Of a DNA stretch of 64,000 bases, positions 6,579-59,221 are shown piece after piece; within the stretch, counting starts at the first letter, position 1, and every line of letters starts with the position of its first letter. The position numbers and the translations under genes were made by a program. The stretch spans positions 2,029-66,028 of the forward strand of contig CAIYQO010000266.1 of NCBI GenBank assembly GCA_903928345.1, in the 5' to 3' direction. The notes under the pieces are model-generated. The model worked only from the letters and a program-made list of their open reading frames with translations, did no database searches and was not told where the DNA came from. This DNA comes from an uncultured bacterium (GTDB lineage Bacteria > Armatimonadota > Hebobacteria > CAIYQO01).

Positions 6579-8111
6579 TTACCTCCCCGCCCCTCTATCC
6601 ATCGTCCGAAACTGCACCGCCTCCGCGACGTGGGGGACGGCTAGCGACTCGTCGCCGGCGAGGTCGGCGATGGTGCGGGCGAGTTTCAGGATTCTATCGT
6701 ACGCGCGGGCGGAGAGGTGGAGCTGGTCGATGGCGGTGCGCAGCAGGCGCTGCACATCGTCGTCGAGGGGGCAGAACTGGCGGATGTCCTTGGGGCGCAT
6801 CTGCGCGTTGTTGGCGATGGGCGTGCCGGCGAAGCGGCGCAGTTGCACCTCGCGGGCGCGCGTGACGCGGGCGCGCACATCAACGGACGCCTCGCCCAGG
6901 CGCGTGGAGAGCAGCTCGTCGTGGCGCAGGCGCGGCACCTCGATGTGGATGTCCAGCCGGTCGAGCAGCGGCCCGCTGATGCGCGCCTGATATTTGGCCA
7001 CCTGCGCGGCGGAGCAGGTGCACCCGCGCACGCCGTCGCCGCGATAGCCGCACGGGCAGGGGTTCATGCTGGCGATGAGCTGCAGCCGCGCGGGATACGA
7101 CAGGTTGGCGGCGGCGCGGGAGATGGTGACCAGCCCGTCTTCCATCGGCTGGCGCAGCACCTCCAGCGTGCGGCGGTCGAATTCGGGGAATTCGTCGAGG
7201 AAGAGCACCCCCTGGTGCGCCAGGCTGATCTCACCCGGGCGCGGAATGCTGCCCCCGCCCACCAGCCCGGCGCTGCTGATGGTGTGGTGCGGCGACCGGA
7301 AGGGGCGGTGGCGGATGAGCCCGCAGCCGGCGGGGAGCATGCCGGCGATGGAGTAGATCTTCGTGATGTCCAGCGCTTCGGTCAGCGTGAGGGGCGGCAG
7401 GATGGTGGGCAGGCGCCGCGCGATGAGCGTTTTGCCCGACCCCGGCGGGCCGATCATAATCATATTGTGCCCGCCCGCCGCCGCCACTTCCAGCGCGCGC
7501 TTCACATGCTCCTGCCCCTTGACCTCGGAGAGGTCCATCTCAAAGGCCAGGCTCTCGGGCGCCCATTCCACTTCGCCGGTCAACGGGGCGCGTGTGCCCG
7601 GGTCGCCGAGTACGGTCGCGGCTTCCGCCAGCGTGGCGACCGGGTAGACCGCCAGCCCCGCCACCACCGCGGCCTCTGGCGCGTTCTCCGTGGGCACGAT
7701 GATCGCCGTTTTGCCGCGCGCCTTGGCGTCCAGCGCGATGGGCAACACGCCGGAGACGGGGCGCACCGAGCCGTCGAGGGATAGCTCACCAATTGCCACG
7801 AACTGCGCGGCGTCGCCGCCCTCCACCTGCCCGCACGCCATGAGGATGGCCAGCGCGATGGGCAGGTCGAAGCCCGGGCCCTCCTTGCGGATATCCGCCG
7901 GGGCCAGGTTGATGACCATGTGGATATTGGAGGGGAATTTGAACTGCGAGTTGCGGATCGCCGTGCGCACGCGCTCGCCGGCCTCCCGCACCGCGGTGTC
8001 GGGCAAGCCGACGATAGTGAACTTGGCGTCTCCCGGTGCAGCATCCACCTCGACCGAGACGAGATAGGCGTCGATGCCCAGAATCGCCGCTGAATCCAAT
8101 TGCGCAAGCAT
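6579..8111 (-). CDS. YifB/ComM family Mg-chelatase-like AAA+ ATPase
   Basis: 510 aa. N-terminal MLAQLDSAAILGIDAYLVSVEVD (Lon-like/ChlI N-domain), Walker A GPPGSGKT, and a C-terminal Mg-chelatase ChlI-like segment. Confidence 0.85.
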   Translation of the reverse strand: MLAQLDSAAILGIDAYLVSVEVDAAPGDAKFTIVGLPDTAVREAGERVRTAIRNSQFKFPSNIHMVINLAPADIRKEGPGFDLPIALAILMACGQVEGGDAAQFVAIGELSLDGSVRPVSGVLPIALDAKARGKTAIIVPTENAPEAAVVAGLAVYPVATLAEAATVLGDPGTRAPLTGEVEWAPESLAFEMDLSEVKGQEHVKRALEVAAAGGHNMIMIGPPGSGKTLIARRLPTILPPLTLTEALDITKIYSIAGMLPAGCGLIRHRPFRSPHHTISSAGLVGGGSIPRPGEISLAHQGVLFLDEFPEFDRRTLEVLRQPMEDGLVTISRAAANLSYPARLQLIASMNPCPCGYRGDGVRGCTCSAAQVAKYQARISGPLLDRLDIHIEVPRLRHDELLSTRLGEASVDVRARVTRAREVQLRRFAGTPIANNAQMRPKDIRQFCPLDDDVQRLLRTAIDQLHLSARAYDRILKLARTIADLAGDESLAVPHVAEAVQFRTMDRGAGR

Positions 8112-10466: not shown

Positions 10467-10549
10467 AATCGTAATCGTGCTCGTGCTCGTAATCGACCGT
10501 ACCCTCGGGCAAAAGCGTATCGATTACGATTACGAGCACGAGCACGATT
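10467..10549. repeat. long imperfect inverted repeat built from hexamer units (AATCGT)2(GCTCGT)2AATCGA / TCGATT(ACGATT)(ACGAGC)2ACGATT
   Basis: Arms at 10467-10496 and 10520-10549. Sits between convergent genes (HK and metalloprotease), consistent with a bidirectional terminator or REP-like element. Confidence 0.5.
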
Positions 10550-11903: not shown

Positions 11904-11926
11904 GACCTGTACACACGTACACCCAC

Positions 11927-11966
11927 GGCCCCCGGCAAATCGCCGGGGGCCGTGTTGTTTGTATTT
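11927..11966 (+). terminator. intrinsic terminator
   Basis: Stem GGCCCCCGGC / GCCGGGGGCC with an AAATC loop, followed by GTGTTGTTTGTATTT. Confidence 0.6.
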
Positions 11967-12150
11967 GGGATTGGGGCGGGAGGGGGAGAGCGAGTCGCCT
12001 GCCTGGTGTTTGTCTGAACCTTGATTTGTCGGATTACTGGATGCCCTTGATTACATTGAGAGGAAAGCGGAAATCAGGGTAATCCGTTCATTCCATCAAT
12101 CAGGGTTCAGACAAGAACCGACCGTTCTTCCCCCCGCCCCAATCCAAAAT
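11961..12150. repeat. composite nested MITE-like element. Outer IR is GGGATTGGGGCGGGAGGGGGA / TCCCCCCGCCCCAATCC. Inner element at 12010-12114 has TTGTCTGAACC...GGTTCAGACAA termini.
   Basis: Inverted termini read directly from the sequence. The inner termini match the TIR family seen at 58088 and 59263. Confidence 0.5.
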
Positions 12151-12159
12151 CCAAGTGAC

Positions 12160-13343: not shown

Positions 13344-13790
13344 ATGCAAGCCCGAGAAATCATGACGGCGAACCCGGTGTGCTGCACGACGTCGGATACG
13401 CTGCGCGCGGCCGCGCAACTGATGCGCGACAACGATTGCGGCTCGTTGCCGGTGGTGGATACGTTGGACGCCAAGCGCCTGGTCGGCGTGGTAACGGACC
13501 GCGACATGGTCTGCCGTGTGCTCGCCACGGAGCAGGATTGCAACACCGCCACCGTGGGCAGCGCCATGACGACCGGCCAGCTCTGGTCGGTGAATGCCGA
13601 AGCGTCCATCGACGACGTGATCGAACTGATGGAGGACGGCCAGGTGCGCCGCATCCCCGTCCTCGACGAGGACAAGCGCGTGATCGGCATCGTCTCCACC
13701 GCCGACCTCGCCCTCGAACTCGACGAGGTGGAGGACGTGGCGGAAGTCTTCGAAGAGATCTCCGAACCGACGCATCTGAACGGACGGTAA
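13344..13790 (+). CDS. CBS-domain pair protein
   Basis: MQAREIMTANPVCC... Two CBS motifs (GSLPVVD, RRIPVLDED). RBS GAGGAGG at 13333-39. Confidence 0.8.
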   Translation: MQAREIMTANPVCCTTSDTLRAAAQLMRDNDCGSLPVVDTLDAKRLVGVVTDRDMVCRVLATEQDCNTATVGSAMTTGQLWSVNAEASIDDVIELMEDGQVRRIPVLDEDKRVIGIVSTADLALELDEVEDVAEVFEEISEPTHLNGR

Positions 13791-13987
13791 CGGCGCCGGG
13801 TGCCCCCCCCGATTGCATCGGGGCAGGCTCCGGCTGATCGTCTCAAGCATGCTGATGCTCTTTGACAATTGTTTGCGGCTCGGGTAGCAGCTACGTGCGT
13901 TCGGCCTGTAGGGCATGGGCGCCGTCCCATGCCTGGTCGCCGCATTCCTATTCCGCTGGAGCAGCGAGCAATGGCCGACGCAAATTT

Positions 13988-14141
13988 TGGGAGGGCGAGC
14001 GTCCCCGCGAGCCGCGCGCGAGGCAGCCGTAGATGACAAAAAGACGGCCTGGACGTGAAACCCCTACACACATCCAGGCCGTCTTCTGTTAGCGATTCCC
14101 GGCTCAATTGCACGCGGCTCGCGGGGACGCTCGCCCTCCCA
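13988..14141. repeat. 154-bp element with a perfect 28-nt terminal inverted repeat and a nested inner hairpin
   Basis: GGGAGGGCGAGCGTCCCCGCGAGCCGCG at 13989-14016 is the exact reverse complement of 14113-14140. The inner hairpin has a 14-bp stem, GAAGACGGCCTGGA / TCCAGGCCGTCTTC (about 14040-14053 and 14072-14085). Confidence 0.55.
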
Positions 14142-14280
14142 AGGTTCTCACGGCGCTTCTCTGTTGGCTCCATCGGCATAGACCTGCGACGGGCAGACAG
14201 GGGCGGATGCGTACCCGTGAGGTAAATCAACGGACCGACTGGAAGTCGGTCCGTAAGTGATAAAACGACCGTATGGTGCC

Positions 14281-17200
14281 TTACTCGAAGAGGAACTCAC
14301 CCCAGTTGTTCGGCTCCATCTTCAGTTCATACACCTCGTCAGCGACGAGGCCGGTGGCCTGGTTGTTCCAGTAGGTGCGCAATACCGTGTCGGTGCCGGG
14401 GGCGTCGCCGTGGGTGGCCCCGATATCACCGGTGAGCTTCAGGCCGGAGCTGGGGGTCAGGCCGATGGCGCCGAGGGGCACGGCGGCTTCCACGGTGTAG
14501 CTCTTCCCGCGCGGATCGACCTTCACGCTGATCTTCGCGGCGTCGAGTACGATGACGCTCTGCATCTCATACCCGCCACGCACCACGCCCGAGTAGAACT
14601 TGCGCGGGTGCGCGTCCGCCGCCACGCGGCGATACACCACCGCGGTCGGTTTCCCCTGGAAGTTGCCGATGGACAGGCGCAGGTCGCCGAGGACCGCCTC
14701 GCCACGCTTGCGCGGCGCTTTCGGGTCGGTGCCGAGTTGGAAGTCCACCGTGTCGCCGGAGCAATACATCACCGCCGGTTCGGTCGCCCCGTTGACCCAC
14801 GGCGTATCGTCGTTGACCTTCCAGCCGAGGTAGAGGTTGGCGTCGTCGTAGGCGAGGGCGGCTTCGATGCGCGCGGCGGCGCTCTTCTCGAAGGCCAGCG
14901 GCTCCTTGGTGTTGAAGTCCTTGCGCATGTCGCCGGTGAAGGCCACGGTGGCCTTGCGCACGGTGGCGATGCGCGTGCCCACGCTCTGCTGCAACAGCTT
15001 CTCGCGGAAGCCGGCGGCGAGCTTCAGGTCGGTATCCTTCACGGTGAGCTTGCCGTTGCCGAGGCGTTGCACGGTCTCCAACCCGACGACCTTCATGTTG
15101 ATAAAGGCCGTTTTTCCCGCCTGCACGTAGAGCTGGCCGTCCTGCGTGACGCTGATGGAGCCGCCGAAGTCCTCCGCGCCCATGCCCGGGGGCACGCTGT
15201 CCATCACCGCGCCGGGCACGGCGGGGTTGGGCAAGTGGATCTTCATCGGGTCGCTCTCGAACAGCTTCGTCAGGTAGAACCCCTCGCCGGTGAGCAGGTG
15301 CCATTCGCCTTTGTCGGTGGGGATGGCAAAGATGTCGCCGATGGGGTCGGGCAGCTTGCCGGTGCCCACGATGTCATACGCGGCGCGGATCAGGCCGGCC
15401 GCCGGCGGGGGCGCCAGATGGCCGCCGTGCACGCCGACGTAGGTGTTCGGGTACGTCCATTTCAACTGCCCGGTGTTCACGTCGAAGCACTGGAAGTCGC
15501 TGTGGGCGGCGGCGTAGTGGCCGTTGTAGACCATCAGCGTGCCGTCTTCGTTGCCGCAACCGCGCTGGGCGCCCATGCCGCCGCGCGCCTGCACGTCGGC
15601 AGGGGCGGGCAGTTGTTTCTCCTGCGCCAGGTCGTACTCCGGCGCGCCGCAGGCCGTCCAGCCGGTGGGCGCGATGCGGTAGAAGCCGCCGTAGAAGGTG
15701 AGCGACTGCGTCATCGGCATGTACCAGCCGTTCACCCAGCCGCCCAGGTTCATCGGGAAGTCGTGCATTTCGTTCGGCTGGACCTGCTCGTCGCCGTTCT
15801 CGTCGGACCACACGCGGATGCCGGCGAGCTGGCCTTCACGTACCGACTCGCCCAGGTAGCTCTTCTCGTCCTTGCCGATGGCCAGCAGCTTGGTGCGCAG
15901 CTTCCACTGTCCGGCGGCGATGCGTTCATAAATCGACACGGGGTGCGAGCCGTGCCCGCCGTTGCCCACGGCGACGTAGAGCCGGTTGTCCTTCCCCAGG
16001 CCGAAGCGCGCGTTGCTCACGCCGCCGCGGTGGAAGACCGCCAGGCACGTCGCTTTGCCGGTGGTGGGATCCAGGTGCCACTCGCACCCCTGGCCGACCA
16101 TCGTCAGCGTGTCGAGGGGGTCGATGGCGCCACCGCCCGCGCCGTAATCGGTGGGGCCGAAGAATTCCTTCACGAAGGCGCCCGTTTTGGCGTCCCACAC
16201 GGAGATGCGCCGCGGCGTGTCGTCGTTTTCCGCCACCCAGAGCTTGCCCTGGACATCGACGCGCAGGCCGCTGATGAAGCGCATGCCGCCCTGTTCCCAC
16301 GGCCCGAGCAGCGCGCGCCCGCCGGTCTTACCGATGGTGCGCAGTGGCGTGCCGTCGGCGCCGAAGACCTTCACCTGGTTGTCGGGGTCGCCCACGCCGA
16401 CATAGAGCGCGCCGGCGGCGTCCACCGCCAGTGCGTTGGCGGCGGTGAGGCCGTCGACGACGGTGGCGGTTTTGTTATCGGCCAGATTTACGCGCAGCAC
16501 CTTGCCCCCCGCGGCGAGCACGTACAGCGCGCCGTCGGGGCCGATTTCCAGGTCGCCGGCGCCGTCCACAGGAATGGTGGTGAGCAGTTTGCCGGTGGCA
16601 ATATCGACCACGCCGACCACGTTGTCCCCCGCGCAACTGAGGAGCAGCTTGCCATTGACGGCGGTCATGCCGGTGAGCACCGGGGTGGCGCCGGCGGGGG
16701 TGACGTCCTTCAGCAGCGCGGTGATGTCCAGCGTGGCGCTCTCGGTGCCCGGCCAGGAGGAGTACGCGTCCTTCACGGCATCGAGCCGGTAGACGACGTT
16801 GTCGCCCTGCTGGCGGTCGTAGACGTAGAGGATGCCGCCGTCCACGGCGAGCAGCCGCGCGTTGCCGAAGCCGCCGCGCTTATGGCGCCACTTCACGTTG
16901 CCGTCCAGGTCGGTGCACACCACCGCCTGCCCGGCCTCCGCGCCGCTCCAACCCAGGAAGATCGACGTGCCGTCGCTGTCCACCGCCATCGGGTTGCCCT
17001 GGTCGCCGCCCCAGTTGCCGCCGGGGCTGTCGAAGGGCGCGCGGCCCCCGTTGTGCGCCCAGCCGACCAGCCGCAGGCCGATGTCGCCGTGGCGGATCGC
17101 TGACCAGGTATACGCGCCGGCGGGCACCACCTCGCCCGGCTGCATGTGGCTCATATTCGTCAGCCCGTCCCACGGCACGCTGTGCTTGCCCTTGGTGTAA

Positions 17201-18147
17201 AAGGCGGCGTTGAGCAGTTGTCGCACCACCTGGCCGTCGGCGTTCTTGATGTTCAGCGACACGTAGCCGTCTTCCGGCATGGTGAAGGGGATATCGGTGA
17301 AGCCGGCCATCTTCTTCTCTTCGAAGAGGCCGGTCCAATCGACCGCGGGGGTGCCTTTGTCCAGACGCACGGGGAACTCGCGGTTGTCGGCCAGGCGGAG
17401 CGGCTGCGGCTCGACGCCGTCTTTGGCGGCCAGGAAGCCGTAGCCCCAGCAGTTGACGGCGCGGAAGGTGAAGACGCGGTCGGGGGTGACGCCGGGGCGG
17501 AAGATGTCCTTCATGGTGATGCGGAAATGCGCGTCGGTGCAGAAGTTCGGCTCGGCGGAGATGACGATGCGCCCGCCCGTCTTCGGCGTAATGCCACCCT
17601 TGATGAGGGTCGTCCACGGCAGCGCGATCTCCTGCGTGTAGCCCTTGCCGTCGGCGTTCTTCAGGAAGGCCTGCTGGGCGCCCAACTTCTTCGCGTCGGG
17701 GGTGTTGATGCCGTCGCCTTTGTAGCATTGCAGCGCGACTACGTCCTTGGCATCGCGGTCACGCCAGGCGGTGAGCCAGCAGATGGATGGGTTGGCGTCG
17801 TCCGGGTTGACGATAAGGCGCAACTGCAGGCAGTCGCCGTTCCAGCCCATGTCGCCGGCGATGCTGCCGGGGTTGTTCATCGGCGTTTCGTCGACCCAGC
17901 GCGCCAGAATGTACAGGTTGTCCTTGTCATACTGGGCGTGCAGCCACACCGCCAGCTTGTCGCGCAAGTGCTCCACGTCGCTGCAGGTGAAGACCCCGCC
18001 GGAGAGATCCCAGTCGTCGGTCTTGCCGTCGATGACCATCTTCCCCGGCGTGGGGAGGACGCGGATGTTCAGGTTTTCCGTCTCCGTTGCCAGGACGGCG
18101 GTACCGAGCGCCAGCAACACGAGCGCAAGCAGGAAGAAGCGAGTCAT
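14281..18147 (-). CDS. giant secreted multidomain protein, type A (CBM9-like N-domain, FlgD-Ig-like, NHL/beta-propeller-like repeats, CBM9-like C-domain)
   Basis: 1288 aa. Signal peptide. IDGKTDDWDLSG motif (CBM9-like). WDGL..G..VP.GAYTW (FlgD-Ig-like). Repeated ALAVDAAGALYVG..DPDNQVKVF (NHL-like). Paralog of the ORFs at 28533 and 54257. Confidence 0.8.
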   Translation of the reverse strand: MTRFFLLALVLLALGTAVLATETENLNIRVLPTPGKMVIDGKTDDWDLSGGVFTCSDVEHLRDKLAVWLHAQYDKDNLYILARWVDETPMNNPGSIAGDMGWNGDCLQLRLIVNPDDANPSICWLTAWRDRDAKDVVALQCYKGDGINTPDAKKLGAQQAFLKNADGKGYTQEIALPWTTLIKGGITPKTGGRIVISAEPNFCTDAHFRITMKDIFRPGVTPDRVFTFRAVNCWGYGFLAAKDGVEPQPLRLADNREFPVRLDKGTPAVDWTGLFEEKKMAGFTDIPFTMPEDGYVSLNIKNADGQVVRQLLNAAFYTKGKHSVPWDGLTNMSHMQPGEVVPAGAYTWSAIRHGDIGLRLVGWAHNGGRAPFDSPGGNWGGDQGNPMAVDSDGTSIFLGWSGAEAGQAVVCTDLDGNVKWRHKRGGFGNARLLAVDGGILYVYDRQQGDNVVYRLDAVKDAYSSWPGTESATLDITALLKDVTPAGATPVLTGMTAVNGKLLLSCAGDNVVGVVDIATGKLLTTIPVDGAGDLEIGPDGALYVLAAGGKVLRVNLADNKTATVVDGLTAANALAVDAAGALYVGVGDPDNQVKVFGADGTPLRTIGKTGGRALLGPWEQGGMRFISGLRVDVQGKLWVAENDDTPRRISVWDAKTGAFVKEFFGPTDYGAGGGAIDPLDTLTMVGQGCEWHLDPTTGKATCLAVFHRGGVSNARFGLGKDNRLYVAVGNGGHGSHPVSIYERIAAGQWKLRTKLLAIGKDEKSYLGESVREGQLAGIRVWSDENGDEQVQPNEMHDFPMNLGGWVNGWYMPMTQSLTFYGGFYRIAPTGWTACGAPEYDLAQEKQLPAPADVQARGGMGAQRGCGNEDGTLMVYNGHYAAAHSDFQCFDVNTGQLKWTYPNTYVGVHGGHLAPPPAAGLIRAAYDIVGTGKLPDPIGDIFAIPTDKGEWHLLTGEGFYLTKLFESDPMKIHLPNPAVPGAVMDSVPPGMGAEDFGGSISVTQDGQLYVQAGKTAFINMKVVGLETVQRLGNGKLTVKDTDLKLAAGFREKLLQQSVGTRIATVRKATVAFTGDMRKDFNTKEPLAFEKSAAARIEAALAYDDANLYLGWKVNDDTPWVNGATEPAVMYCSGDTVDFQLGTDPKAPRKRGEAVLGDLRLSIGNFQGKPTAVVYRRVAADAHPRKFYSGVVRGGYEMQSVIVLDAAKISVKVDPRGKSYTVEAAVPLGAIGLTPSSGLKLTGDIGATHGDAPGTDTVLRTYWNNQATGLVADEVYELKMEPNNWGEFLFE

Positions 18148-34453: not shown

Positions 34454-34473
34454 GGCGCCGCGCTTCCCCCCCG

Positions 34474-34503
34474 CCCCGGCGGCACCGCCGGGGCGGGTTT
34501 TTT
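34474..34503 (+). terminator. intrinsic terminator
   Basis: CCCCGGCGG-CA-CCGCCGGGG stem followed by CGGGTTTTTTGT. Confidence 0.6.
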
Positions 34504-39081: not shown

Positions 39082-39160
39082 CGTTCCACGTTCCACGTTC
39101 CAAGTTCAACGGGATGACCGACTTGCGTATCGCGTTGAACCTTGAACGTGGAACGTGGAA
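39082..39160. repeat. near-perfect 29-bp stem hairpin built from (GTTCCAC)3
   Basis: CGTTCCACGTTCCACGTTCCAAGTTCAACG ... CGTTGAACCTTGAACGTGGAACGTGGAAC. Starts 1 nt after the stop of 38238..39080. Confidence 0.55.
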
Positions 39161-39180
39161 CTCGTCCGAAGGACGCTTGC

Positions 39181-41382: not shown

Positions 41383-43566
41383 ATGCAGCCGTTGACCTTC
41401 GACCACACCAGTTTCCTCGCGAACGGGGAGCGCATCTTTCTCATCTCCGGCGAGGTGCACTACTTCCGCGTGCCGCGGGCGGGGTGGGGCGATCGGCTGC
41501 GGAAGATGCAGGACGCCGGGGGCAACTGCGTGGCGACCTATGTCCCCTGGCTGCTGCACGAGCCGGAGGAGGGGCGCTTCGACTTCGACGGCGCGCAATT
41601 GGAACTGGAGGCCTTTCTCGACCTCTGCAACGAGGTGGGCCTCTGGGCGCTGGTGCGGCCCGGGCCGTATCAGTACTCCGAGCTGGCGTACGACGGCCTG
41701 CCCGGCTGGTTGTGCGAGGGGTATCCCACCCTGCGCGCGCAAAACCTGGCGGGCAAGGATTTCCGCGTCTCCTCCATCTCCTACCTGCACCCCGACTTCC
41801 TCGCCAAGGCGCGCCGCTGGTTCCACGAGGTGGCGCCGCGCATCGCCCGGCACCTCACCTCGCACGGGGGCGCCGTGGCGGCGGTGCAAGTGGATAACGA
41901 ATTGATGGGCATCCACGAATGGTTCGGCAGCCTGGATTACCACCCCGCGGCGATGGGCGTGGGACGGGAGATGGGGCGCTGGCCGGCCTTCCTGCAGACG
42001 CGCTACGGTTCGCTGGACGCGGTGAACGCCGCCTACGGCCTGCGTGCCAAGACGTGGGCAGCGGTGCGACCTCTCGACGCGGTGACCGCCGGCACGCCGG
42101 AAGAACGGCGGCGCGTGCAGGACTACGCGGAATGCTACCGCGGCAGCGTGGCCCACTACGCGCGCATCCTGGCCGATTGGCTGCGCGAGGGCGGCGTGGA
42201 CGTGCCCATCGTGCACAACTCGCCCAACCCCACGTCGAACGCCGACTTCCGCGAGCTGGTCGAACGCATGGGGCCGGACTTCCTGCTCGGTTCGGACCAC
42301 TACTACGCACTGGACATGGACTGGGACGGCAACAACCCCACACCGAAGTATGCCGCCAAATGCTTCTACTCCCTCGAGGAGTTGCGCCACTTCGGCGTGC
42401 CGCCCACCGTGTTCGAAATGCCCGGCGGCAGCCTGTCCGACTTCCCGCCCGTCACCGCTCACGACGCCGAGTGCGCCTACCTGCTCAACGTGGCCTACGG
42501 GTTGAAGGGGTACAACTACTACATCTTCGCCGGGGGTTACAACGTGCCCGGCACCGGCACCACCAGCGAAGTCTACGACTACGGCGCGGCGGTCTCCCCC
42601 GACGGCGAGTTGCGCCCCCTCTACGGCGCGCAGCAACGGCTGGGGCAATTCCTGGCCGACCACCGCTGGCTCGCGGGCGCGGGGTGCGCCGCCGATTGCC
42701 GCATCGGGCTGCTGTGGGAGTACAGCCGCGCGGGTAAGCACGGGGCCGACCACAAGGGCGGCATCGACTTCTCCGCCGCCGACGCGTGGGGACTCTTCTG
42801 GAAGGGCCTGCTGATGACCGCCTTCAGCGCCGGACTCACCCCGGAACTGGCGGATCTCGCCAGCGACGACGTGCTGGCGCGCCTGGATCTCCCCCTCGTG
42901 GTGCCCACGGCGCACACGATGTCCCGCGCCGTGCAAGAAGGCCTGGTCGACTTCGTGCGGGCGGGGGGGCAGTTGCTCCTTGCGCCGGTGGTGCCCGCCC
43001 TCGACGAAGCGTACCGCCCGTGCACCGTGCTGGCGGACTTCCTCGGCGCGCCGGTGCAGGAGGCCTACCGCTGCATGGCGCCGCTGCTCACCGCCTTCGA
43101 CGTGCGCAACGTCTTTGTGAACGGCGGCCTCTTCGCCACCACCGCCCGCCCCGAGGACGCCGTGCCGGTGGCCGTGGAGGAGCGCGGGAACCGCGAGATC
43201 GGCTGGCGCCGCGCCTACCCCGGCGGCGGCTGCGCCACCATACTCGGCCTGCACTGGAAACACGCCAAGCACGAACACGCGACCATGCTCGCCAACGCCC
43301 TCACCGACCTCGGCCTGCAGCGCCGCGTGCAGTGCAGCAACCCGTTGATCTGGACGGCCTTGCGCAGCGACGGGCAACGCACCATGCTCTTTCTGCTCAA
43401 CCTCTTCACCGCCCCGCTCACCACCCGCGTCTCCTTCCGCGACACCACCGGCACGTGGATCGACACCGGCGAGCACACCCTCCCCGGCATCTCCGTCACC
43501 GCGTGGACGGACGGGCGGGTGGTGTATAACACGGCGGATGGGGCGAAAATAGGAGGACGGGGATGA
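41383..43566 (+). CDS. glycoside hydrolase family 35 beta-galactosidase-like
   Basis: ISGEVHYFRVP...WGDRLRKMQDAG.N.VATYVPW.LHEPEEG.FDF.G...LE.F...C...GLWALVRPGPY...E...GLPGWL. Nucleophile region VQVDNELMG. Confidence 0.8.
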   Translation: MQPLTFDHTSFLANGERIFLISGEVHYFRVPRAGWGDRLRKMQDAGGNCVATYVPWLLHEPEEGRFDFDGAQLELEAFLDLCNEVGLWALVRPGPYQYSELAYDGLPGWLCEGYPTLRAQNLAGKDFRVSSISYLHPDFLAKARRWFHEVAPRIARHLTSHGGAVAAVQVDNELMGIHEWFGSLDYHPAAMGVGREMGRWPAFLQTRYGSLDAVNAAYGLRAKTWAAVRPLDAVTAGTPEERRRVQDYAECYRGSVAHYARILADWLREGGVDVPIVHNSPNPTSNADFRELVERMGPDFLLGSDHYYALDMDWDGNNPTPKYAAKCFYSLEELRHFGVPPTVFEMPGGSLSDFPPVTAHDAECAYLLNVAYGLKGYNYYIFAGGYNVPGTGTTSEVYDYGAAVSPDGELRPLYGAQQRLGQFLADHRWLAGAGCAADCRIGLLWEYSRAGKHGADHKGGIDFSAADAWGLFWKGLLMTAFSAGLTPELADLASDDVLARLDLPLVVPTAHTMSRAVQEGLVDFVRAGGQLLLAPVVPALDEAYRPCTVLADFLGAPVQEAYRCMAPLLTAFDVRNVFVNGGLFATTARPEDAVPVAVEERGNREIGWRRAYPGGGCATILGLHWKHAKHEHATMLANALTDLGLQRRVQCSNPLIWTALRSDGQRTMLFLLNLFTAPLTTRVSFRDTTGTWIDTGEHTLPGISVTAWTDGRVVYNTADGAKIGGRG

Positions 43567-43694
43567 ATGAAAAGTGAAAAGTGAATAATGGAAAATGAAA
43601 ATTGGCGGGTTTCGGCCTAATAGAAGACGGTTACACCTTCTGAACGGCCATTCCCAATTTTCACTTTCAACTTTTCATTTCTCACTTTTCATTC
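43565..43694. repeat. AT-rich long imperfect inverted repeat (GAATGAAAAGTGAAAAGTGAATAATGGAAAATGAAAATTGG / CCAATTTTCACTTTCAACTTTTCATTTCTCACTTTTCATTC)
   Basis: Arms of about 40 nt at 43565-43605 and 43654-43694. AT-rich in a 70% GC background. Lies between GH35 and the amidase. Confidence 0.5.
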
Positions 43695-49499: not shown

Positions 49500-49660
49500 G
49501 TACGAAAACCGCAAAGACGCAGAGTACGCAAAGGGGACACGAAGGGAAACGGATTGGGCCAAGGTGGAATGTCATGGCCGAACACAAACATCTACGTGTG
49601 AAGTTGAAAAATCTCTTCGCGGTCTCCTTTGCGTCCTTTGCGTCTTTGCGGTTTTCGTAC
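49500..49660. repeat. MITE-like element with 35-nt near-perfect TIRs (GTACGAAAACCGCAAAGACGCAGAGTACGCAAAGG / CCTTTGCGTCCTTTGCGTCTTTGCGGTTTTCGTAC)
   Basis: Three mismatches in 35 nt. The 91-nt spacer is itself 59% AT. Confidence 0.5.
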
Positions 49661-50988: not shown

Positions 50989-51049
50989 CCAAACACCACC
51001 GGGCGCCCTCCCGGGCGCCCGGCGGTGTTTTGCGGAATAACGGCGTGCC

Positions 51050-53000: not shown

Positions 53001-53101
53001 GATGCGGAAACGCTCACCTCATACGGGGCGACAGAGGGGGAAAGGACCGACCGCTCGGGAAAAAAAATCCGTGCCGCCGACCGGCACGGATGGAAAACGG
53101 G

Positions 53102-54169: not shown

Positions 54170-54256
54170 GGTTCCGGCGAATACACTGCGAAACTAAACG
54201 GCCTGTGCAGAGGATGTATTCTCCGCACAGGCCGTTTTTGTGCCTCGAACAACTCC

Positions 54257-57200
54257 CTACTCTACTGCCGCCGTCCCCCAGTTCGCCGGCTCCAGGCGGC
54301 TTTCGTTGGGTACGTCGTCCACCACGTTGGCGGAGAAGCTGTTGTTCATCCAGTAGGCGCGCAGGGCGGCCTGGGTGCCTTGCGCGTTCTTCGCGAAGAT
54401 GTACCCCGCGTCCATGCGCACGGCGCTACCGGGTTGTGGCGTCCAGCCGAGTAGCGCGAGGGGCACGGTGACGACGGCGGTGAACTCCTCCTGGCCCGCG
54501 CGGTACTCCAGCTTCACGTCGCTCGCCACGGTGATGGCGTCGAAGGCTTCCTGGCCGGTGGGCGATTTGAGCACGATCGGGTCGCCGGCGAAACCCTGCA
54601 CCTTCGGGCGGTAGAGCACCGCGAAGGGCTTGCCGTCTTGCCGGGTGACCACCAGCCGCACGTCGCCGACGGCCGGCGTTTTGCGCGTCGGGTCGGCGGC
54701 AGGATCGGCGGCGAATTGCAGGTCGATGGCGTTGCCGCCCTTGAAGAGCAATCGCGGGTCGGCGCTGCTGTTCGCCAGCGCGTAGGGGCTGCGCACGGTA
54801 TACTGCACGTACAGGTTCGTCGCGTCATAGGTGGCGCGCACGGTGAAGTCCCGCGTGGCGTCCACCACCTTGTGCACTTCCTTGGCGGCTTCCAGCCCGG
54901 CGCGCCCGCCGCGGCCGATCTCAAAGCGCGCGGTGCGGGTGAGTTGCGCGGCGTAGGCGGCCTGCGCCTGCACGCAGCGCTGCACATCGGCGTCCGTGTG
55001 GGTATACATGCCACCGGGGAGGCGCTGCACGGTGTCCAGCCCGCGGATCTCCGTCACGCGGCCATCCTGGTCGCCGGCGAGCAGGAAGTAGCGTTGCGAC
55101 CCCACGGGCTGCACCAGTTGGCCGACGAAGTTCTCACACGCCTCGATGTCCGCCCCCAGGCCGCCGCCCAGCCGCCCGTCGCGCATCACCATGCCCACGT
55201 AGAGCCCGTCGCGCGTGAAGAGGTGGAAGGGGCCGAAGTAGGTGGCGATGCCGGTGTAGTCGCCCGCCACGCCCAGCGGCATCGTCGGACCCCACAGCTT
55301 GCCCGCGGTGACCGGCGGCATGTTGATGGCGGCATGCCAGTCCACCGTGCCGGTGTAGCCCCACCGCAGCTTGCCGTCCGGCGACCAGCGCGCCAGGCCG
55401 GGGGTGGAGCCGGGCGAGGAGGTATACACCGTGCCGTCCCGCGGGTCCGTCCACAGCCCGCCGGTGTTGCTCACGGCGAGGGTCTCCGGCTTGGTGAAGT
55501 CGTAACGTGGGCGACCGTCGGGGTCGAAGCCCAGGCAGCGGTAGACGCGCCCGTTCGCCCACAGGTCCAGGTTGGCGTCCATCCACTGCGGCGGGTAGAA
55601 GTTCCACGCCGCCTTGCGGTCGTCGCCGATCATCGTCATTTCGCTGTCCTGCATGATCCCGTCGCGGTTGGTATCCGACCAGATGTAGGTGCCGTTCGGA
55701 TACTTCTTGATATCGTTCATGAACGGGTACGCGGGCCACGGGGTGAGGGAGTGCCCGTTGGTGCTGCGCAGGTAGAACAGATACGGCTTGAAAACGTCCT
55801 TGTCGCGCATGAAGAGGACGGTCCCCTTGGCGTGCAGGCTGCCCCAGGCGTACTGGCGTCCGTTCTTCGCGGTGATGACGTGCAGATCGTGCGGCACGGC
55901 AGGCGAGTTCGGGTCGCTGGATCGCCAGCAGGTGCTCACCGGACTCCACGTGCCTTTGTCCAGGTCGATCTTCCACTCCGTGCCGTGACAGTAGACGGTG
56001 TCGGCGTGCTGGGGGTCCATCCACACGAAGGTGGAGTAGTTGCTGCCGCCGAAGAAGTCGCGTACGATGGCGCCCTTCCGGGTGTCCCACACGCTCACGC
56101 GGCGCGGTTCGTCGAGGTTTTCCGCCACCCACAACCGGTGCTGCGCGTCCACCGCGATGCCGCCGGGCTCCAGCATCCCCGTGCCGCTGAAGGTACCCAG
56201 CCGCGGGCGCCCGCCCTTGGTGCCGATGCTGCGCCGATATTTGCCGACGGCGGTGAAGACGCTCACGTTCTGCAATTTCCCGCGGTTGGCCACGTAGATG
56301 GCGCCCGCGGCGTCCACGGCGAGGCTCACCGGCGCGTCGAGGTGCGTCGTGACGCACGGCGTCGCCTTGCCGTCCCGCAGCGCGAGTACCGCGCCGCCGC
56401 TGATCACCAGCAGGCGGCCATCGGGATGCACCGCCAGCCGCCCCGGCGCGGGCACGGGCCAAGTGGCTTTCAGGTCGCCGCTCACGGCGTCGTAGGCCGC
56501 CACCAGGTTGCGCGCCCCCCAGGCGACGTACACCGTGCCCGCGGCGTAGGCCAGGCCGGTGGCGACGTTCGTCTTCGCGTCGCCGCCGTCCGGCGCGGCG
56601 AGGGCGGGCTTGCCGTTGCCCCAGTTGAGCGGGCGCGCGTCGGCCATGTCGAAGACCTTCACCGAGTGCTCGCCTTCGCTGCCGTTGTCGCCGCGCACGA
56701 AGAAGCGCGGGCCGTCGCAGGCCAGATCCTCCGCGTTGTGCTTGCTGCCCCACTTCTTTTTGCCGTTCGCATCGACGCGGATGATCCCCCAGCCGCTCTC
56801 GCAGTAGGTCCAACCGAGTAGCAGATCGTTCCCCGCGGCGGCGGCGCATTCCGGCACGCCGTGGTCGCCGCCCCAGCCGCCGGTGTTGTCGTCCGTCTTA
56901 TACGGCGGATTACCCGAGTTGTGCACGGAGAGCTTGAATTTGGTCGTCAGTGGTTGGTGGATGAGCCCCTTCCACGTGTATGAGCCCGCGGGGACCGGCT
57001 TGCCGGCGTCGTCCAGGCCGTCCCACGCTACCGTGTCGTGCCCGGCCTTACGCGGGGCGGAAGCTACCAGCGTGCGCACCGCCATGCCCGCGTCGCTCCA
57101 CAACTGCACCGTCACCTCGCCGTCGGCGGGCACGTCGTAGCCGAAGGTCAGCGGCGTGGGCGGCACGGGGGGCGTGGCGTCCTCCACCATCTCGTGCGGC

Positions 57201-58000
57201 AGGTTGCCCGTCTTCGCGAAGGCGATCTTCCCCCAGCAGGCGGAACTCTGGAAGGTGAAACCGGGGCCGGCCATCACGTCATACAACCACCCGCCGCCCG
57301 CGGAGAGGCCGTCGGGTGTGCTGAAGTTGAGCTGCACGGTGCCGGGCACCAGATCGCCGCCGACGGGGATATGCTTCGCGCCCAGCGTGCTCCACGGGAT
57401 GCGGTATTCGAAGGTGTAGCCCTTGCCGTCCGGCTTGAGCAGGTACGCCGCCTGGTAGAGGTCGTGCGGCACGATGCCGAAAGGCGCCCACGCGGGCCGC
57501 CCCGGCAGGTAGTTCATGCCGGTCTGCACTTCCAGCACGGGCTCCTTGCGGTCGGTGTAGTACCACAGCGTGAAGTGCGCCATCTGGTCGTTGGGCACCG
57601 GATTAAACGTACCCTGCGTCACCGGAAAGCCTTGCGTGGGGTCGAGCACCATGCGGAACTGGCAGGAGTCGCCGTTCCATCCCTTGTCGCCGTTCACTTG
57701 CGGGTCGTTGCGGTTCATCAGCGGCGAGCCGTCGCGCACGTCGCCGGAGAGGTAGACGGCGTCGGCGTCGTACATCATGGCGAACTTCGCGCTGATCTGA
57801 TCGGCGGTCTCCGACACGATATACATGTACAACTGGCCGGATAAATCCCAGTCGTCCAGCTTGCCGTCGATCACCACCTTGCCCGGCACCGGCACGGCGA
57901 AGAGCTTCTTATGCTTCCCCCGTCCGCTGTCCGCCGACGCCGCCAGCGCCAGCAACAGGGCAACGAACAGCACGAGAAAACGCGACAGGGGGATACGCAT
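54257..58000 (-). CDS. giant secreted multidomain protein, type A paralog
   Basis: 1247 aa. Signal peptide. IDGKLDDWDLSG. TVAWDGLDDAGKPVPAGSYTWKG. NHL-like LAVDAAGAIYVANRGKLQNVSVF. C-terminal CBM9-like domain. Confidence 0.8.
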   Translation of the reverse strand: MRIPLSRFLVLFVALLLALAASADSGRGKHKKLFAVPVPGKVVIDGKLDDWDLSGQLYMYIVSETADQISAKFAMMYDADAVYLSGDVRDGSPLMNRNDPQVNGDKGWNGDSCQFRMVLDPTQGFPVTQGTFNPVPNDQMAHFTLWYYTDRKEPVLEVQTGMNYLPGRPAWAPFGIVPHDLYQAAYLLKPDGKGYTFEYRIPWSTLGAKHIPVGGDLVPGTVQLNFSTPDGLSAGGGWLYDVMAGPGFTFQSSACWGKIAFAKTGNLPHEMVEDATPPVPPTPLTFGYDVPADGEVTVQLWSDAGMAVRTLVASAPRKAGHDTVAWDGLDDAGKPVPAGSYTWKGLIHQPLTTKFKLSVHNSGNPPYKTDDNTGGWGGDHGVPECAAAAGNDLLLGWTYCESGWGIIRVDANGKKKWGSKHNAEDLACDGPRFFVRGDNGSEGEHSVKVFDMADARPLNWGNGKPALAAPDGGDAKTNVATGLAYAAGTVYVAWGARNLVAAYDAVSGDLKATWPVPAPGRLAVHPDGRLLVISGGAVLALRDGKATPCVTTHLDAPVSLAVDAAGAIYVANRGKLQNVSVFTAVGKYRRSIGTKGGRPRLGTFSGTGMLEPGGIAVDAQHRLWVAENLDEPRRVSVWDTRKGAIVRDFFGGSNYSTFVWMDPQHADTVYCHGTEWKIDLDKGTWSPVSTCWRSSDPNSPAVPHDLHVITAKNGRQYAWGSLHAKGTVLFMRDKDVFKPYLFYLRSTNGHSLTPWPAYPFMNDIKKYPNGTYIWSDTNRDGIMQDSEMTMIGDDRKAAWNFYPPQWMDANLDLWANGRVYRCLGFDPDGRPRYDFTKPETLAVSNTGGLWTDPRDGTVYTSSPGSTPGLARWSPDGKLRWGYTGTVDWHAAINMPPVTAGKLWGPTMPLGVAGDYTGIATYFGPFHLFTRDGLYVGMVMRDGRLGGGLGADIEACENFVGQLVQPVGSQRYFLLAGDQDGRVTEIRGLDTVQRLPGGMYTHTDADVQRCVQAQAAYAAQLTRTARFEIGRGGRAGLEAAKEVHKVVDATRDFTVRATYDATNLYVQYTVRSPYALANSSADPRLLFKGGNAIDLQFAADPAADPTRKTPAVGDVRLVVTRQDGKPFAVLYRPKVQGFAGDPIVLKSPTGQEAFDAITVASDVKLEYRAGQEEFTAVVTVPLALLGWTPQPGSAVRMDAGYIFAKNAQGTQAALRAYWMNNSFSANVVDDVPNESRLEPANWGTAAVE

Positions 58001-58087
58001 GGCAAAGCACTCCCGGGTGGAATTTCTACGTAGAAAGACACGTTAACGGGGCAAACGTTGCGGGGATCACGACGCCTCGCCGCGCAA

Positions 58088-58255
58088 TTGTCTGAACCGG
58101 GATTTGGGGGGATGAAAGGATTTCCGTGATGGGAGAACGGAATAAGGCTTGCATGGCTGCGAATCACGGGAGGAAATGAGAGGGAATATGGGATTTCTCA
58201 ATTCGTTCCCCCATCATGGAAATCCCTGAATCCCCCCAAATCCCGGTTCAGACAA
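58088..58255. repeat. 168-bp MITE-like element with about 52-nt TIRs (TTGTCTGAACCGGGATTTGGGGGGAT... / ...ATCCCCCCAAATCCCGGTTCAGACAA)
   Basis: Arms at 58088-58140 and 58204-58255 with about 5 mismatches. Lies in the upstream region of gene 54257..58000. Confidence 0.6.
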
Positions 58256-58364
58256 TTCCGATTCCAAGCGCGCCGCGCGGAGCTTGTAGCGGATCGACGG
58301 TTCGTCGGAAGCCAGCATTTGTTTGAGGATCGGTTCCATCGCGCGACCATGTTTCTCGGGAACG

Positions 58365-58946: not shown

Positions 58947-59018
58947 GACGGTTGCCTCCCTGGTAGCGACCATATTCCGTATACATGACGGGCATACCTG
59001 CCGCCTCCCCTGTCGTGC

Positions 59019-59051
59019 CCGTAATCGTGCTCGTGCTCGTGCTCGTAATCG
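59019..59051. repeat. hexamer-unit element GTAATCGT(GCTCGT)3AATCGA, the same unit set as 10467-10496
   Basis: Direct sequence identity of the units. Located about 75 nt upstream of the start of the zinc-ribbon gene. Confidence 0.4.
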
Positions 59052-59091
59052 AAAATCCATACAACAACGCGAATCCTCCTCATCCCCAATA

Positions 59092-59190: not shown

Positions 59191-59221
59191 GCCGTGATCC
59201 GCAACTGAGCACGCTCAACCA

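What the first reader, a model, noticed from the sequence alone, without database searches (positions are those of the whole stretch)
13988..14141. 154-bp element with a perfect 28-nt terminal inverted repeat and a nested hairpin
13989-14016 is the exact reverse complement of 14113-14140. A 14-bp inner hairpin (about 14040-14085) sits in the spacer. Perfect 28-nt arms imply recent origin or strong selection. It lies between convergent genes (CBS protein and giant protein 14281). A TTGACA-17-TAGCAG promoter-like site at 13863-13891 points into it. It may be a MITE, a structured sRNA, or a bidirectional terminator.
Basis: seen in the sequence. Interest (0 to 1): 0.6.

Follow-up and report, generated by a model that had tools for sequence, protein, structure and literature searches.

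The report
REP repeat pair bracketing a terminator
The 154-bp palindrome is two inverted copies of a short selfish repeat (a REP sequence of the kind handled by RAYT transposases) on either side of an ordinary transcription terminator between two convergent genes; it is a fairly ordinary element, except that its middle part lies flipped in a sister strain.

Summary
The perfect arms are 30 nt (13987-14016 / 14113-14142). The inner hairpin has about 18 pairs. The RNA fold scores z = -13.9.

The arms are not private to this locus. Each is a copy of a discrete 25-26-nt motif, GGCTCG-NNN-GGA-NN-CTCGCCCTCCC. I found it in at least 120 genome loci, mostly Planctomycetota, also Verrucomicrobiota, Armatimonadota and Acidobacteriota. 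About half of the copies sit in inverted pairs with GGGAGGG outermost. Base pairs in its small hairpin covary.

The same motif, and lineage-specific hairpins with the same 5' GGAG foot, flank or invade genes of a RAYT clade (NCBIfam REP-associated tyrosine transposase). The arms are therefore REP sequences and the element is a REP doublet.

Its 96-nt interior is unique. It carries the strongest canonical intrinsic terminator in the window: a GC stem with UUUUU on the minus strand and a U-rich tail on the plus strand.

In a second assembly of the same population (L002) the flanks and arms are identical, but the interior is reverse-complemented.

The sRNA and promoter readings find no support. 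A classical TIR/TSD MITE is not supported. I file it as a new member of a known kind, of modest interest.

The parts
13987..14016 (+). Left REP arm, head outward. TT, then GGAG foot (13990-13993), stem GGCGAGCG (13994-14001), loop TCCC (14002-14005), stem CGCGAGCC (14006-14013), then GCG. The 25-nt family core is 13989-14013.
   Evidence: Perfect 30-nt inverted repeat. The core matches the family pattern on the - strand. The same 25-mer occurs in 5 other genome loci from 5 lineages. The GGAG-plus-hairpin architecture is shared with RAYT-flanking repeats.
14113..14142 (-). Right REP arm, head outward, the exact reverse complement of the left arm. The 25-nt core GGCTCGCGGGGACGCTCGCCCTCCC is 14116-14140 on the + strand.
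14017..14112 (.). 96-nt interior (cargo) between the arms. It is unique to this locus and is reverse-complemented in assembly L002.
   Evidence: Against L002 it is 81/96 identical as reverse complement and 63/100 in the same orientation. BLAST orientation is reversed for the interior and direct for the flank. No other copy in the fetched loci or in plasmids.
14038..14091 (.). Nested bidirectional intrinsic terminator. GC-rich stem 14043-14083 (extended to 14041-14085 by A-T pairs) with an 11-nt loop. AAAAA at 14038-14042 reads as UUUUU for - strand transcripts. TTCTGTTA at 14084-14091 is the U-rich tail for + strand transcripts.
   Evidence: It has the most stem pairs of the terminator-like hairpins in the window. 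One compensatory pair change against L002, GGCC/GGCC to GGTC/GACC.
14231..14253 (-). Proximal 10-bp perfect hairpin 28 nt after the stop of the 1288-aa gene, with tail TTGATTTA. Probably that gene's first terminator. Context only, not part of the REP doublet.
   Evidence: (I6).
13344..13790 (+). CBS-domain gene, upstream convergent neighbour (context).
   Evidence: The identical protein is carried on contigs L001-L004.
14281..18147 (-). 1288-aa secreted-looking protein gene, the other convergent neighbour (context).

Best explanation
The element is a REP doublet wrapped around a transcription terminator.

Each 30-nt arm is one copy of a 25-26-nt repetitive extragenic palindrome. It has an unpaired 5' foot GGAG, an 8-nt stem beginning GG (here GGCGAGCG/CGCGAGCC with a central tandem G-A mismatch) and a 4-nt loop (TCCC). 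Units of this design are the substrates of a clade of RAYT (REP-associated tyrosine, HUH/Y1) transposases. The same repeats flank these genes, and even sit in frame inside them. By analogy with E. coli TnpA-REP, the protein would bind the folded single-stranded DNA hairpin and cleave next to the foot. That step is inferred.

The two arms lie heads outward. This is how the repeats most often flank the RAYT genes, and how all inverted pairs of this family are arranged.

The 96-nt interior is host sequence, not part of the repeat. It is a canonical Rho-independent terminator that stops the two convergent transcripts. It looks best suited to the minus-strand 1288-aa gene in this window: UUUUU tail, and G-U rather than C-A mismatches on that strand. 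In RNA, the arms would extend the terminator stem into a helix of about 60-70 bp. By analogy with REP/BIME elements this should reinforce termination or protect the 3' end. That is also inferred.

The two identical inverted arms also promote exchange across the hairpin, either by recombination or by replication template switching. This would account both for their perfect identity and for the flipped interior in the sister assembly.

Shown: sequence, family membership of the arms, the RAYT association of the family, terminator anatomy, and the inversion between two assemblies. Inferred: RAYT action in this genome, actual termination, and the mechanism of inversion.
For: (1) Family membership of the arms.
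- The conserved unit is sharply bounded at 26 nt, with no flank conservation.
- The free positions covary: GC..GC, CG..CG, CC..GG, GT..AC, TG..CA, and G5-C14 changing to A5-T14.
- 90 of 170 copies have an inverted partner, always upstream, so GGGAGGG is outermost. Only 2 have a downstream partner.
- The window's exact 25-mer recurs in Lentisphaerae, Verrucomicrobiota, Nitrospirales, Kiritimatiellae and Acidobacteriota loci.

(2) RAYT link.
- In L079 a gene carries the motif in tandem, in frame, inside and ahead of it. Spliced, the protein scores 5.5e-20 over positions 10-145 of 146 of NCBIfam NF047646, REP-associated tyrosine transposase.
- Clade members score 73.8-82.4 bits against a cut-off of 80. 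JGI names some of them RayT.
- Several relatives carry inserts reading ARGDARPP, which is the translation of the window's arm.
- The exact family motif flanks RAYT genes in L226, L224, L225 and L213. Close variants with the same head and loop flank them in L227 and L228.
- 42 RAYT loci have flanking inverted repeats, nearly all GGAGGG plus a lineage-specific hairpin, 33 of them heads outward.
- 10.7% of GGAG sites in RAYT loci have a hairpin at the foot, against 0.3-2.5% for control tetranucleotides. There are 75 distinct stems.

(3) Terminator. The inner hairpin has 18 pairs plus TTTTTG on the - strand and TTCTGTTA on the + strand. It matches the style of terminators at six other gene ends in the window. 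It sits between convergent stop codons. One compensatory pair change is seen against L002.

(4) Location bias of the family. Copies lie in 25 convergent against 6 divergent intergenic gaps, with a background of 75 against 68. 54 of 170 copies lie at contig edges, as expected of a repeat.

(5) Arms against interior. There are 0 differences in 47 arm positions and 15 in 96 interior positions between the window and L002, Fisher p = 0.0026.
Against: - Only this one doublet occurs in the 64-kb window. A generalized GGAG-plus-hairpin scan gives 16 hits against 15.1 +/- 2.9 in shuffles.
- There is no RAYT in the window. Copy number and RAYT presence in this genome could not be tested.
- The spacer between the 25-nt cores is 102 nt. 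The family mode is 10-33 nt.
- The foot is GGAG, not the canonical GT[AG]G of described RAYT-associated REPs (PMC3733652, PMC6006769).
- RAYT clade scores straddle the NCBIfam cut-off. Pfam Y1_Tnp is only a weak hit.
- A G-U against C-A strand test across family doublets gave no support for selection on the sense RNA. The count was 8 against 2 in the opposite direction, with small n.
- There are no expression data. Termination is judged from sequence only.
- The inversion rests on two assemblies.
Confidence: 0.75

Rival explanations
1. Invertible DNA switch (inverton). The 30-nt inverted repeats are recombination sites for a site-specific invertase. Flipping the interior changes which convergent transcript meets the strong side of a polar terminator.
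For: - The interior is reverse-complemented in L002 while flanks and arms keep their orientation.
- The C/T mismatch at arm position 31 stays with the flank in both assemblies. The exchange points therefore lie at the very inner edge of the homology.
- The more stable RNA strand flips with the interior: window - strand -124.9 against + strand -119.4; L002 + strand -124.1 against - strand -115.8.
- Contigs of this population break near or inside the element.
Against: - There is no recombinase or transposase gene within about 10 kb on either side.
- No promoter was found inside or beside the element.
- The two versions differ at 15 of 96 interior positions. They are diverged alleles, not two states of one clone.
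- Only two sequences exist. In L002 both tails are only weakly U-rich.
- The arms belong to a REP family found at hundreds of unrelated loci, most with spacers too short to hold a switch.
Confidence: 0.1
2. Classical MITE. A deletion derivative of a DDE-transposase insertion sequence, with terminal inverted repeats, inserted as a 154-156-bp unit.
For: Its size and perfect terminal inverted repeats resemble MITEs such as Neisseria Correia elements (my own knowledge). It lies in an intergenic region.
Against: - No target-site duplication: the flanks are ...GCAAAT | TTGGGAGGG...CCCTCCCAA | GGTTCT.
- The interior has no other copy in the window, in 228 fetched loci or in plasmids.
- Across the family only the 26-nt unit is conserved, not a whole element.
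- The associated enzyme is an HUH/Y1 RAYT, not a DDE transposase.
- No transposase is enriched near family copies.
Confidence: 0.05
3. Gene for a structured small RNA, transcribed from the TTGACA-17-TAGCAG site upstream.
For: Extremely stable fold, z = -13.9. One compensatory change in the inner stem.
Against: - No Rfam family. The only hits are sub-threshold miRNA-precursor models, which match any long hairpin.
- The promoter scan found nothing, and the -10 hexamer is poor.
- The element is absent at the orthologous site of the 85%-identical relative L023. In L024-L026 (69% identical) it is replaced by unrelated hairpins.
- A near-perfect duplex of about 70 bp is more typical of a repeat or terminator than of a functional sRNA.
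Confidence: 0.04
4. Chance or purely structural palindrome, such as a by-product of quasi-palindrome correction at a terminator, with no relation to any repeat family.
For: The window holds many other long intergenic palindromes with unrelated sequences.
Against: - None of 100 shuffles gave a match.
- The exact 25-mer recurs in five other lineages, and 20 of 25 positions match a family found at 120 or more loci.
- The covariation and the RAYT association are not expected of chance palindromes.
Confidence: 0.02

Closest known systems
REP sequences and BIMEs of Escherichia coli and other Enterobacteria, with their RAYT (TnpA-REP)
   Same: - A 20-40-nt imperfect palindrome with an unpaired conserved foot 5' of the stem.
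- Dispersed intergenic copies, often in inverted pairs made of two sub-types. Here the sub-types are GGCTCGGCAGGAGCC... and GGCTCAGCGGGAGCT....
- Preference for the 3' ends of genes.
- The same repeats flank a Y1/HUH transposase gene.
- Proposed roles in termination and mRNA stabilisation (PMC3733652 abstract; PMC6006769 background).
   Different: - The foot is GGAG instead of GT[AG]G.
- The host phyla are Planctomycetota, Verrucomicrobiota, Armatimonadota, Acidobacteriota and others.
- The identical 25-mer is shared across phyla, whereas REPs are described as species-specific (PMC6006769).
- The window's doublet has a 96-nt interior holding a full terminator rather than a short linker.
REPIN-RAYT systems of Pseudomonas (Bertels and Rainey 2011, PMC3116915)
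   Same: Two inverted REPs that can fold into one long hairpin. Non-autonomous, and dependent on a single-copy RAYT.
   Different: A REPIN replicates as a whole doublet, so spacer and arms are conserved among many copies. Here only the 26-nt unit is conserved across the family, spacers range from 0 to about 250 nt, and the window's interior is unique. I do not file it as a REPIN.
GTAG- and CGTC-tagged palindromic repeats (Di Nocera et al. 2013, PMC3733652)
   Same: Tagged stem-loop repeats occurring as singletons, dimers and clusters. They include intragenic in-frame copies and cases in PVC bacteria (R. baltica, O. terrae).
   Different: The motif strings of this family are absent from that paper's text and supplements. 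The tag GGAG is not among the listed degenerate forms (GYAG, GYRG, GTRG, GTMG, GTGG).
Neisseria Correia repeat-enclosed elements (my own knowledge, not tested here)
   Same: About 100-155-bp intergenic elements with about 26-bp terminal inverted repeats. They fold into long hairpins and act on transcription or termination and RNA processing.
   Different: Correia elements are copied as whole units with TA duplications and are genus-specific. Here there is no duplication, the interior is unique, and the associated enzyme is of the RAYT type.
Invertons, i.e. invertible promoters flanked by inverted repeats (my own knowledge)
   Same: Perfect inverted repeats flank a short segment that is found in both orientations.
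   Different: No invertase lies nearby and no promoter lies inside. The two orientations come from diverged alleles in different assemblies.

Membership tests
RAYT-associated REP (REP in the broad sense, as in a REPtron) | Short (20-40 nt) hairpin-forming unit with sharp boundaries | tested here: met
   The unit is 26 nt and conservation drops to background at positions -2 and +26. The window arms contain it at 13989-14013 and 14116-14140.
RAYT-associated REP (REP in the broad sense, as in a REPtron) | Stem maintained by compensatory changes, with a conserved unpaired tetranucleotide at the 5' foot | tested here: met
   Pairs 5-14, 6-13 and 7-12 covary. 75 distinct stems follow an invariant GGAG foot in RAYT loci. 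10.7% of GGAG sites carry a hairpin at the foot, against 0.3-2.5% for controls.
RAYT-associated REP (REP in the broad sense, as in a REPtron) | The same repeat flanks a RAYT (Y1/HUH) gene | tested here: met
   Met for the family: L226, L224, L225, L213 and L079 carry the exact motif, L227 and L228 carry near variants, and 42 loci have GGAGGG hairpins. The proteins match NF047646 at 72-82 bits against a cut-off of 80. Not testable for the window's own genome: no RAYT in the window.
RAYT-associated REP (REP in the broad sense, as in a REPtron) | Many dispersed, mainly intergenic copies in one genome | tested here: inconclusive
   Several MAGs have copies on three or more contigs (CAIOKE01, CBDCWT01, CAXBSH01). 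54 of 170 copies lie at contig edges, and intergenic copies outnumber genic ones. The scan was truncated. In the window only this doublet exists.
GTAG-tagged REP superfamily (Di Nocera 2013; canonical TnpA-REP substrates) | GT[AG]G, or the listed degenerate forms, at the foot of the hairpin | tested here: not met
   The foot is GGAG at 13990-13993 and throughout the RAYT clade. It is not filed under this superfamily.
REPIN (Bertels and Rainey) | Two inverted REPs able to form one hairpin | tested here: met
   30-nt perfect arms.
REPIN (Bertels and Rainey) | The whole doublet, spacer included, is the replicated unit and is present in many near-identical copies | tested here: not met
   The interior has no second copy in the window, in the fetched loci or in plasmids. 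Family spacers are not conserved. The source genome itself could not be scanned.
Rho-independent (intrinsic) terminator | GC-rich stem-loop followed directly by a U-tract, downstream of a stop codon | tested here: met
   18 pairs plus TTTTTG on the - strand, and 14 pairs plus TTCTGTTA on the + strand, between convergent stops. Same style as six other gene-end hairpins. The tool's own scan missed it because its loop limit is 8.
Rho-independent (intrinsic) terminator | Transcript 3' ends map to the U-tract | not testable with these tools
   No transcriptome data are available.
MITE (DDE-transposon derivative) | Target-site duplication and multiple whole-element copies | tested here: not met
   No direct repeat at the borders. 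The interior is unique.
Inverton (site-specific invertible switch) | Both orientations present | tested here: inconclusive
   Opposite orientations occur in the window and in L002. These are two diverged alleles from different assemblies. Within-population mixing was not tested.
Inverton (site-specific invertible switch) | Dedicated invertase nearby and a promoter inside | tested here: not met
   Pfam scans of 16 neighbouring ORFs found no recombinase. No promoter-like site was found.
Any Rfam RNA family | Match reaching the gathering score | tested here: not met
   Best hit is MIR831 at 33.8 bits against 100. A typical family doublet gives only sub-threshold miRNA models.

The most novel reading that the evidence does not exclude
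The window's element is one visible case of a GGAG-footed REP/RAYT system that behaves unlike the textbook ones in two ways. First, its 25-nt repeat is identical across at least five phyla. That implies horizontal spread or an unusually rigid protein-DNA code, whereas REP-RAYT systems are regarded as species-specific and vertically inherited. Second, its doublets can enclose host cargo, here a polar terminator, that is flipped by exchange between the arms. That would make a REP-bounded, orientation-switchable terminator cassette.
Probability: 0.15. Interest if true: 0.65.

Novelty: new member of a known kind. Interest (0 to 1): 0.35.

Why it matters
For annotating this window, a striking palindrome becomes two ordinary parts: REP repeats and a terminator. 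An sRNA or switch annotation should be avoided.

More widely, the arms led to a repeat family that I could not find in Rfam, or by string search in open-access papers. It has a GGAG-footed hairpin, is tied to a RAYT clade, and shares an identical 25-mer among Planctomycetota, Verrucomicrobiota, Armatimonadota, Acidobacteriota and others. If that holds up, it has three uses:
- It explains the many spurious small ORFs (ARQEPRPP, LGGSLALP, ARGDARPP) and the contig breaks in MAGs of these phyla.
- It gives a second guide tetranucleotide for testing how RAYTs read their substrates.
- It bears on whether REP-RAYT systems are ever transferred horizontally.

The flipped interior is a small natural example of inversion across a short perfect inverted repeat.

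Tried and rejected
- Rfam cmscan of the locus and of a typical family doublet gave only sub-threshold miRNA-precursor hits, which match any long hairpin.
- The promoter scan found no site.
- I looked for more assemblies of this locus. The exact look-up of the 1288-aa protein is not on record. A homology search with its C-terminus gave nothing above 70% identity. The CBS protein cluster has one member and no name. The inversion therefore rests on two sequences.
- All-against-all clustering of ORFs around 138 motif loci found only abundant planctomycete families (DUF1501, DUF1549/1553, kinases, MoxR) and no enriched transposase.
- ORFs between oppositely oriented motif copies in L031 and L039 are ordinary genes, not RAYTs. 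The ORFs between the two doublets in L013 were listed but not searched against any family.
- A G-U against C-A strand-bias test on 66 family doublets relative to gene direction gave no support for sense-RNA selection.
- Full-text searches for the peptide strings and the 16-mers found no relevant paper.
- The REP surveys PMC3733652 and PMC6006769 do not contain the motif.
- BLAST of the element against plasmids gave no match.
- A generalized GGAG-plus-hairpin scan of the window showed no excess beyond the two arms.
- The CTCGCCCTCCC hit at 49771 lies in a leucine- and alanine-rich coding stretch and is taken as chance.
- I tested a hix-like half-site symmetry around the apparent exchange point by eye and rejected it.
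- Full-length Pfam on the L079 ORF gave nothing, because the repeat array interrupts the domain. The spliced sequence was needed.

Full report
**1. The observation**

The sequence is as described, with small corrections.
- The perfect inverted repeat is 30 nt, 13987-14016 against 14113-14142. None of 100 dinucleotide shuffles matched. Weaker complementarity extends to 58 nt.
- The nested hairpin is 14041-14057 / 14069-14085, 17 nt with one mismatch. It reaches 18 pairs on the minus strand when G-U is allowed.
- As RNA the element folds at -123.4 kcal/mol on the + strand (z = -13.9) and -125.8 on the - strand (z = -12.7).
- It lies in a 490-nt gap between a CBS-domain gene (13344-13790, +) and a 1288-aa gene (14281-18147, -). 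The genes are convergent.
- The TTGACA-17-TAGCAG site exists at 13862-13890 but is a poor promoter match. The promoter scan reports nothing there.
- No second copy of the arm occurs in the window, even allowing three mismatches.

**2. The arms belong to a widespread repeat**

From memory, the arm resembled a motif behind spurious small ORFs in PVC-group genomes (ARQEPRPP, LGRSLALP). I treated that as a lead and wrote a pattern that would match both sequences: GGCTCGNNNGGANNCTCGCCCTCCC.
- The pattern hit 18 loci in the viral-contig collection.
- Most hosts are Planctomycetota. Others are Verrucomicrobiota, Kiritimatiellae, Lentisphaerae, Armatimonadota, Acidobacteriota and a few further groups. 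Hits include long contigs and complete chromosomes, so mis-binning does not explain the spread.
- The window itself is probably Armatimonadota. This rests only on the names attached to the closest CBS-protein homologues.

**3. Anatomy of the unit**

- Across 170 copies, conservation is confined to 26 nt and drops to background immediately outside.
- The five free positions covary. Positions 6-7 and 12-13 read GC..GC (the main type), CG..CG (the window's type), CC..GG, GT..AC, and TG..CA in L213. G5-C14 changes to A5-T14 in a common sub-type.
- Read on the GGGAGGG strand, the unit is GGAG, an 8-nt stem starting GG with a central tandem G-A mismatch, a 4-nt loop, and the returning stem.
- 90 of 170 copies have an inverted partner within 250 nt. 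The partner is always on the side that puts GGGAGGG outermost; only 2 lie the other way. Spacers are mostly 10-33 nt, with a tail to about 250 nt.
- Doublets are often heterodimers of two sub-types, as in E. coli BIMEs.
- Longer spacers hold nested hairpins or further motif copies.
- The window's exact 25-mer recurs in five loci from five other lineages.
- A crude GC3-based gene caller places copies mainly in intergenic DNA: 25 in convergent gaps and 6 in divergent gaps, against a background of 75 and 68. A third of copies sit at contig ends.
- No Rfam family matches. No open-access paper contains the 16-mers.

**4. The transposase link**

- In L079 (a Kiritimatiellae MAG) the CG..CG variant forms tandem arrays inside and ahead of one ORF.
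- With the array spliced out, that ORF matches NCBIfam NF047646, REP-associated tyrosine transposase, at 5.5e-20 over positions 10-145 of 146. It has an HUH motif (YVIMPDHIHFF) and a Tyr motif (YVRNNP).
- 1460 homologues exist. JGI names some RayT. Clean members score 73.8-82.4 bits against a cut-off of 80.
- Their alignment shows variable in-frame inserts reading ARGDARPP. That is the translation of the window's arm.
- A metagenome scan returned 80 loci of this clade.
- The exact family motif flanks the gene in L226, L224, L225 and L213.
- Close variants with the same TTGGGAGGG head and GGGA loop flank and invade the genes in L227 and L228.
- 42 loci have flanking inverted repeats. Nearly all are GGAGGG plus a lineage-specific hairpin, and 33 of the 42 are heads outward.
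- In these loci 10.7% of GGAG sites carry a hairpin at the foot, against 0.3-2.5% for control tetranucleotides. There are 75 different stems, nearly all beginning GG.

This is the defining arrangement of REP sequences and their RAYTs. The difference is a GGAG foot in place of the GT[AG]G described in the two surveys I read (PMC3733652; PMC6006769).

**5. The interior**

- The 96 nt between the arms have no other copy in the window, in the 228 fetched loci or in plasmids.
- They contain a GC-rich stem (14043-14083). AAAAA precedes it, which reads as UUUUU on the minus strand, and TTCTGTTA follows it.
- My scan found the same design at six other gene ends in the window: 11924-11954, 34470-34497, 50996-51025, 53067-53091, 54198-54235 and 62409-62449. 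This genome therefore uses canonical intrinsic terminators, and this is the one with the most stem pairs.
- In the window's orientation, both the U-tract and the G-U (rather than C-A) mismatches favour the minus-strand transcript.
- The 1288-aa gene also has a proximal hairpin at 14231-14253.

**6. Comparison with relatives**

- Four short contigs encode the identical CBS protein. Only L002 reaches the element.
- In L002 the left flank is 191/196 identical and all 47 observed arm positions are identical. The interior is 81/96 identical as reverse complement against 63/100 in the same orientation. BLAST gives the same reversal.
- The interior is therefore inverted between the two assemblies. 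It is also much more diverged than the arms (Fisher p = 0.0026).
- One stem pair changed compensatorily, GGCC/GGCC to GGTC/GACC.
- The more stable RNA strand flips with the interior.
- The C/T mismatch just inside the arms stays with the flank. The exchange points therefore lie at the inner edge of the homology.
- No recombinase lies within about 10 kb.
- I attribute the inversion to recombination or replication template switching between the arms. That mechanism is an inference from general knowledge, and the evidence is two sequences.
- More distant relatives lack the element. L023 (85% identical CBS protein) has a 64-nt gap with a simple hairpin and a different downstream gene. L024-L026 (69%) have nested hairpins of unrelated sequence.

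**7. Verdict**

The finding is real. It resolves into a REP doublet, heads outward, enclosing a bidirectional intrinsic terminator between convergent genes.
- It works like REP/BIME elements.
- It is a member of the RAYT-associated REPs in the broad sense.
- It is not a member of the GTAG superfamily, because the foot differs.
- It is not shown to be a REPIN, because the doublet as a whole is not repeated.
- It is not a TIR/TSD MITE, and it is not an sRNA.
- An active invertible switch is not excluded, but it lacks an invertase, a promoter and population-level evidence.

Still untested: copy number and RAYT presence in the source genome, actual termination, and within-population orientation.

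Noticed in passing
window 10473-10549, 39083-39161, 43565-43694, 49500-49660, 59087-59191, 61109-61184: Six further long intergenic palindromes with arms of 23-41 nt and mutually unrelated sequences. Several arms are built from short tandem units (GTGCTC, GTTCCAC, GAAAAGT, CGCAAAG). They are not GGAG-footed REPs. Their origin and function were not examined.
   Followed up: partly
window 58083-58272 and 59192-59290: A second repeat family. A 68-nt unit occurs at 58205-58272 and 59223-59290 (91% identical), with an inverted copy at 58083-58146. The copies bracket the gene 58365-59222 (-), whose product hits only Pfam Zn_ribbon_15 and no transposase. A related GGGATTTGGGG-type palindrome lies at 11959-12154.
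   Followed up: partly
L079:918-1784(-); proteins P0241, P0245, P0258, P0277, P0300, P0358: RAYT genes of this clade carry their own REP repeats in frame, as tandem arrays between the HUH and Tyr motifs (AARVDARPPV..., ARGDARPP) and as reverse-complement copies (REGERPREP) in the N-terminal region. This explains protein lengths ranging from 157 to 265 aa.
   Followed up: partly
L227:3001-3594 and L228:3001-3687: Two RAYT genes with near-identical REP types sit at the same place in a type I restriction-modification locus. An hsdS-like Methylase_S gene lies upstream, one further gene lies between it and the RAYT, and hsdR lies immediately downstream.
   Followed up: no
L027-L146 (genome loci), L005-L022 (viral-collection loci): The identical 25-nt REP (GGCTCGGC[AG]GGAGCCTCGCCCTCCC) is shared by species of Planctomycetota, Verrucomicrobiota, Armatimonadota, Acidobacteriota, Nitrospirales, Ignavibacteria and some Proteobacteria MAGs. 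The stem variants are not phylum-specific. This is unusual, since REPs are described as species-specific. 54 of 170 copies lie at contig ends, so the repeat probably breaks MAG assemblies.
   Followed up: partly
L024:9095-9312 (also L025, L026): Downstream of the orthologous CBS gene in a 69%-identical relative there is again a nested pair of palindromes: an outer pair CAGGGAACTGTCCCGGCCCATCGTG / CACGATGGGCCGGGACAGTCCCTG and an inner pair TAGGGACTGTCTCCGCCGA / TCGGCGGGGACAGTCCCTA. The architecture is the same as in the window but the sequence is unrelated.
   Followed up: no
window 14281-18147(-) and 54257-58000(-): Two very large proteins (1288 and 1247 aa) both show a weak FlgD_ig hit and beta-propeller-type hits (PQQ_2 in the first, NHL in the second). 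Each gene is followed by a strong terminator hairpin in a convergent gap. They may be paralogues.
   Followed up: no
window 13866-13882 vs 14105-14121: A 17-nt direct repeat (82%), CAATTG...GCGGCTCG, links the promoter-like region upstream to the inner junction of the right arm. It may be chance or the remnant of a decayed third REP.
   Followed up: no
L013:5048-5124 and 7758-7834: Two family doublets share about 35 nt of extra flank. They lie in inverted orientation 2.7 kb apart on a contig from the viral collection. The ORFs between them were listed but not searched against any protein family.
   Followed up: partly
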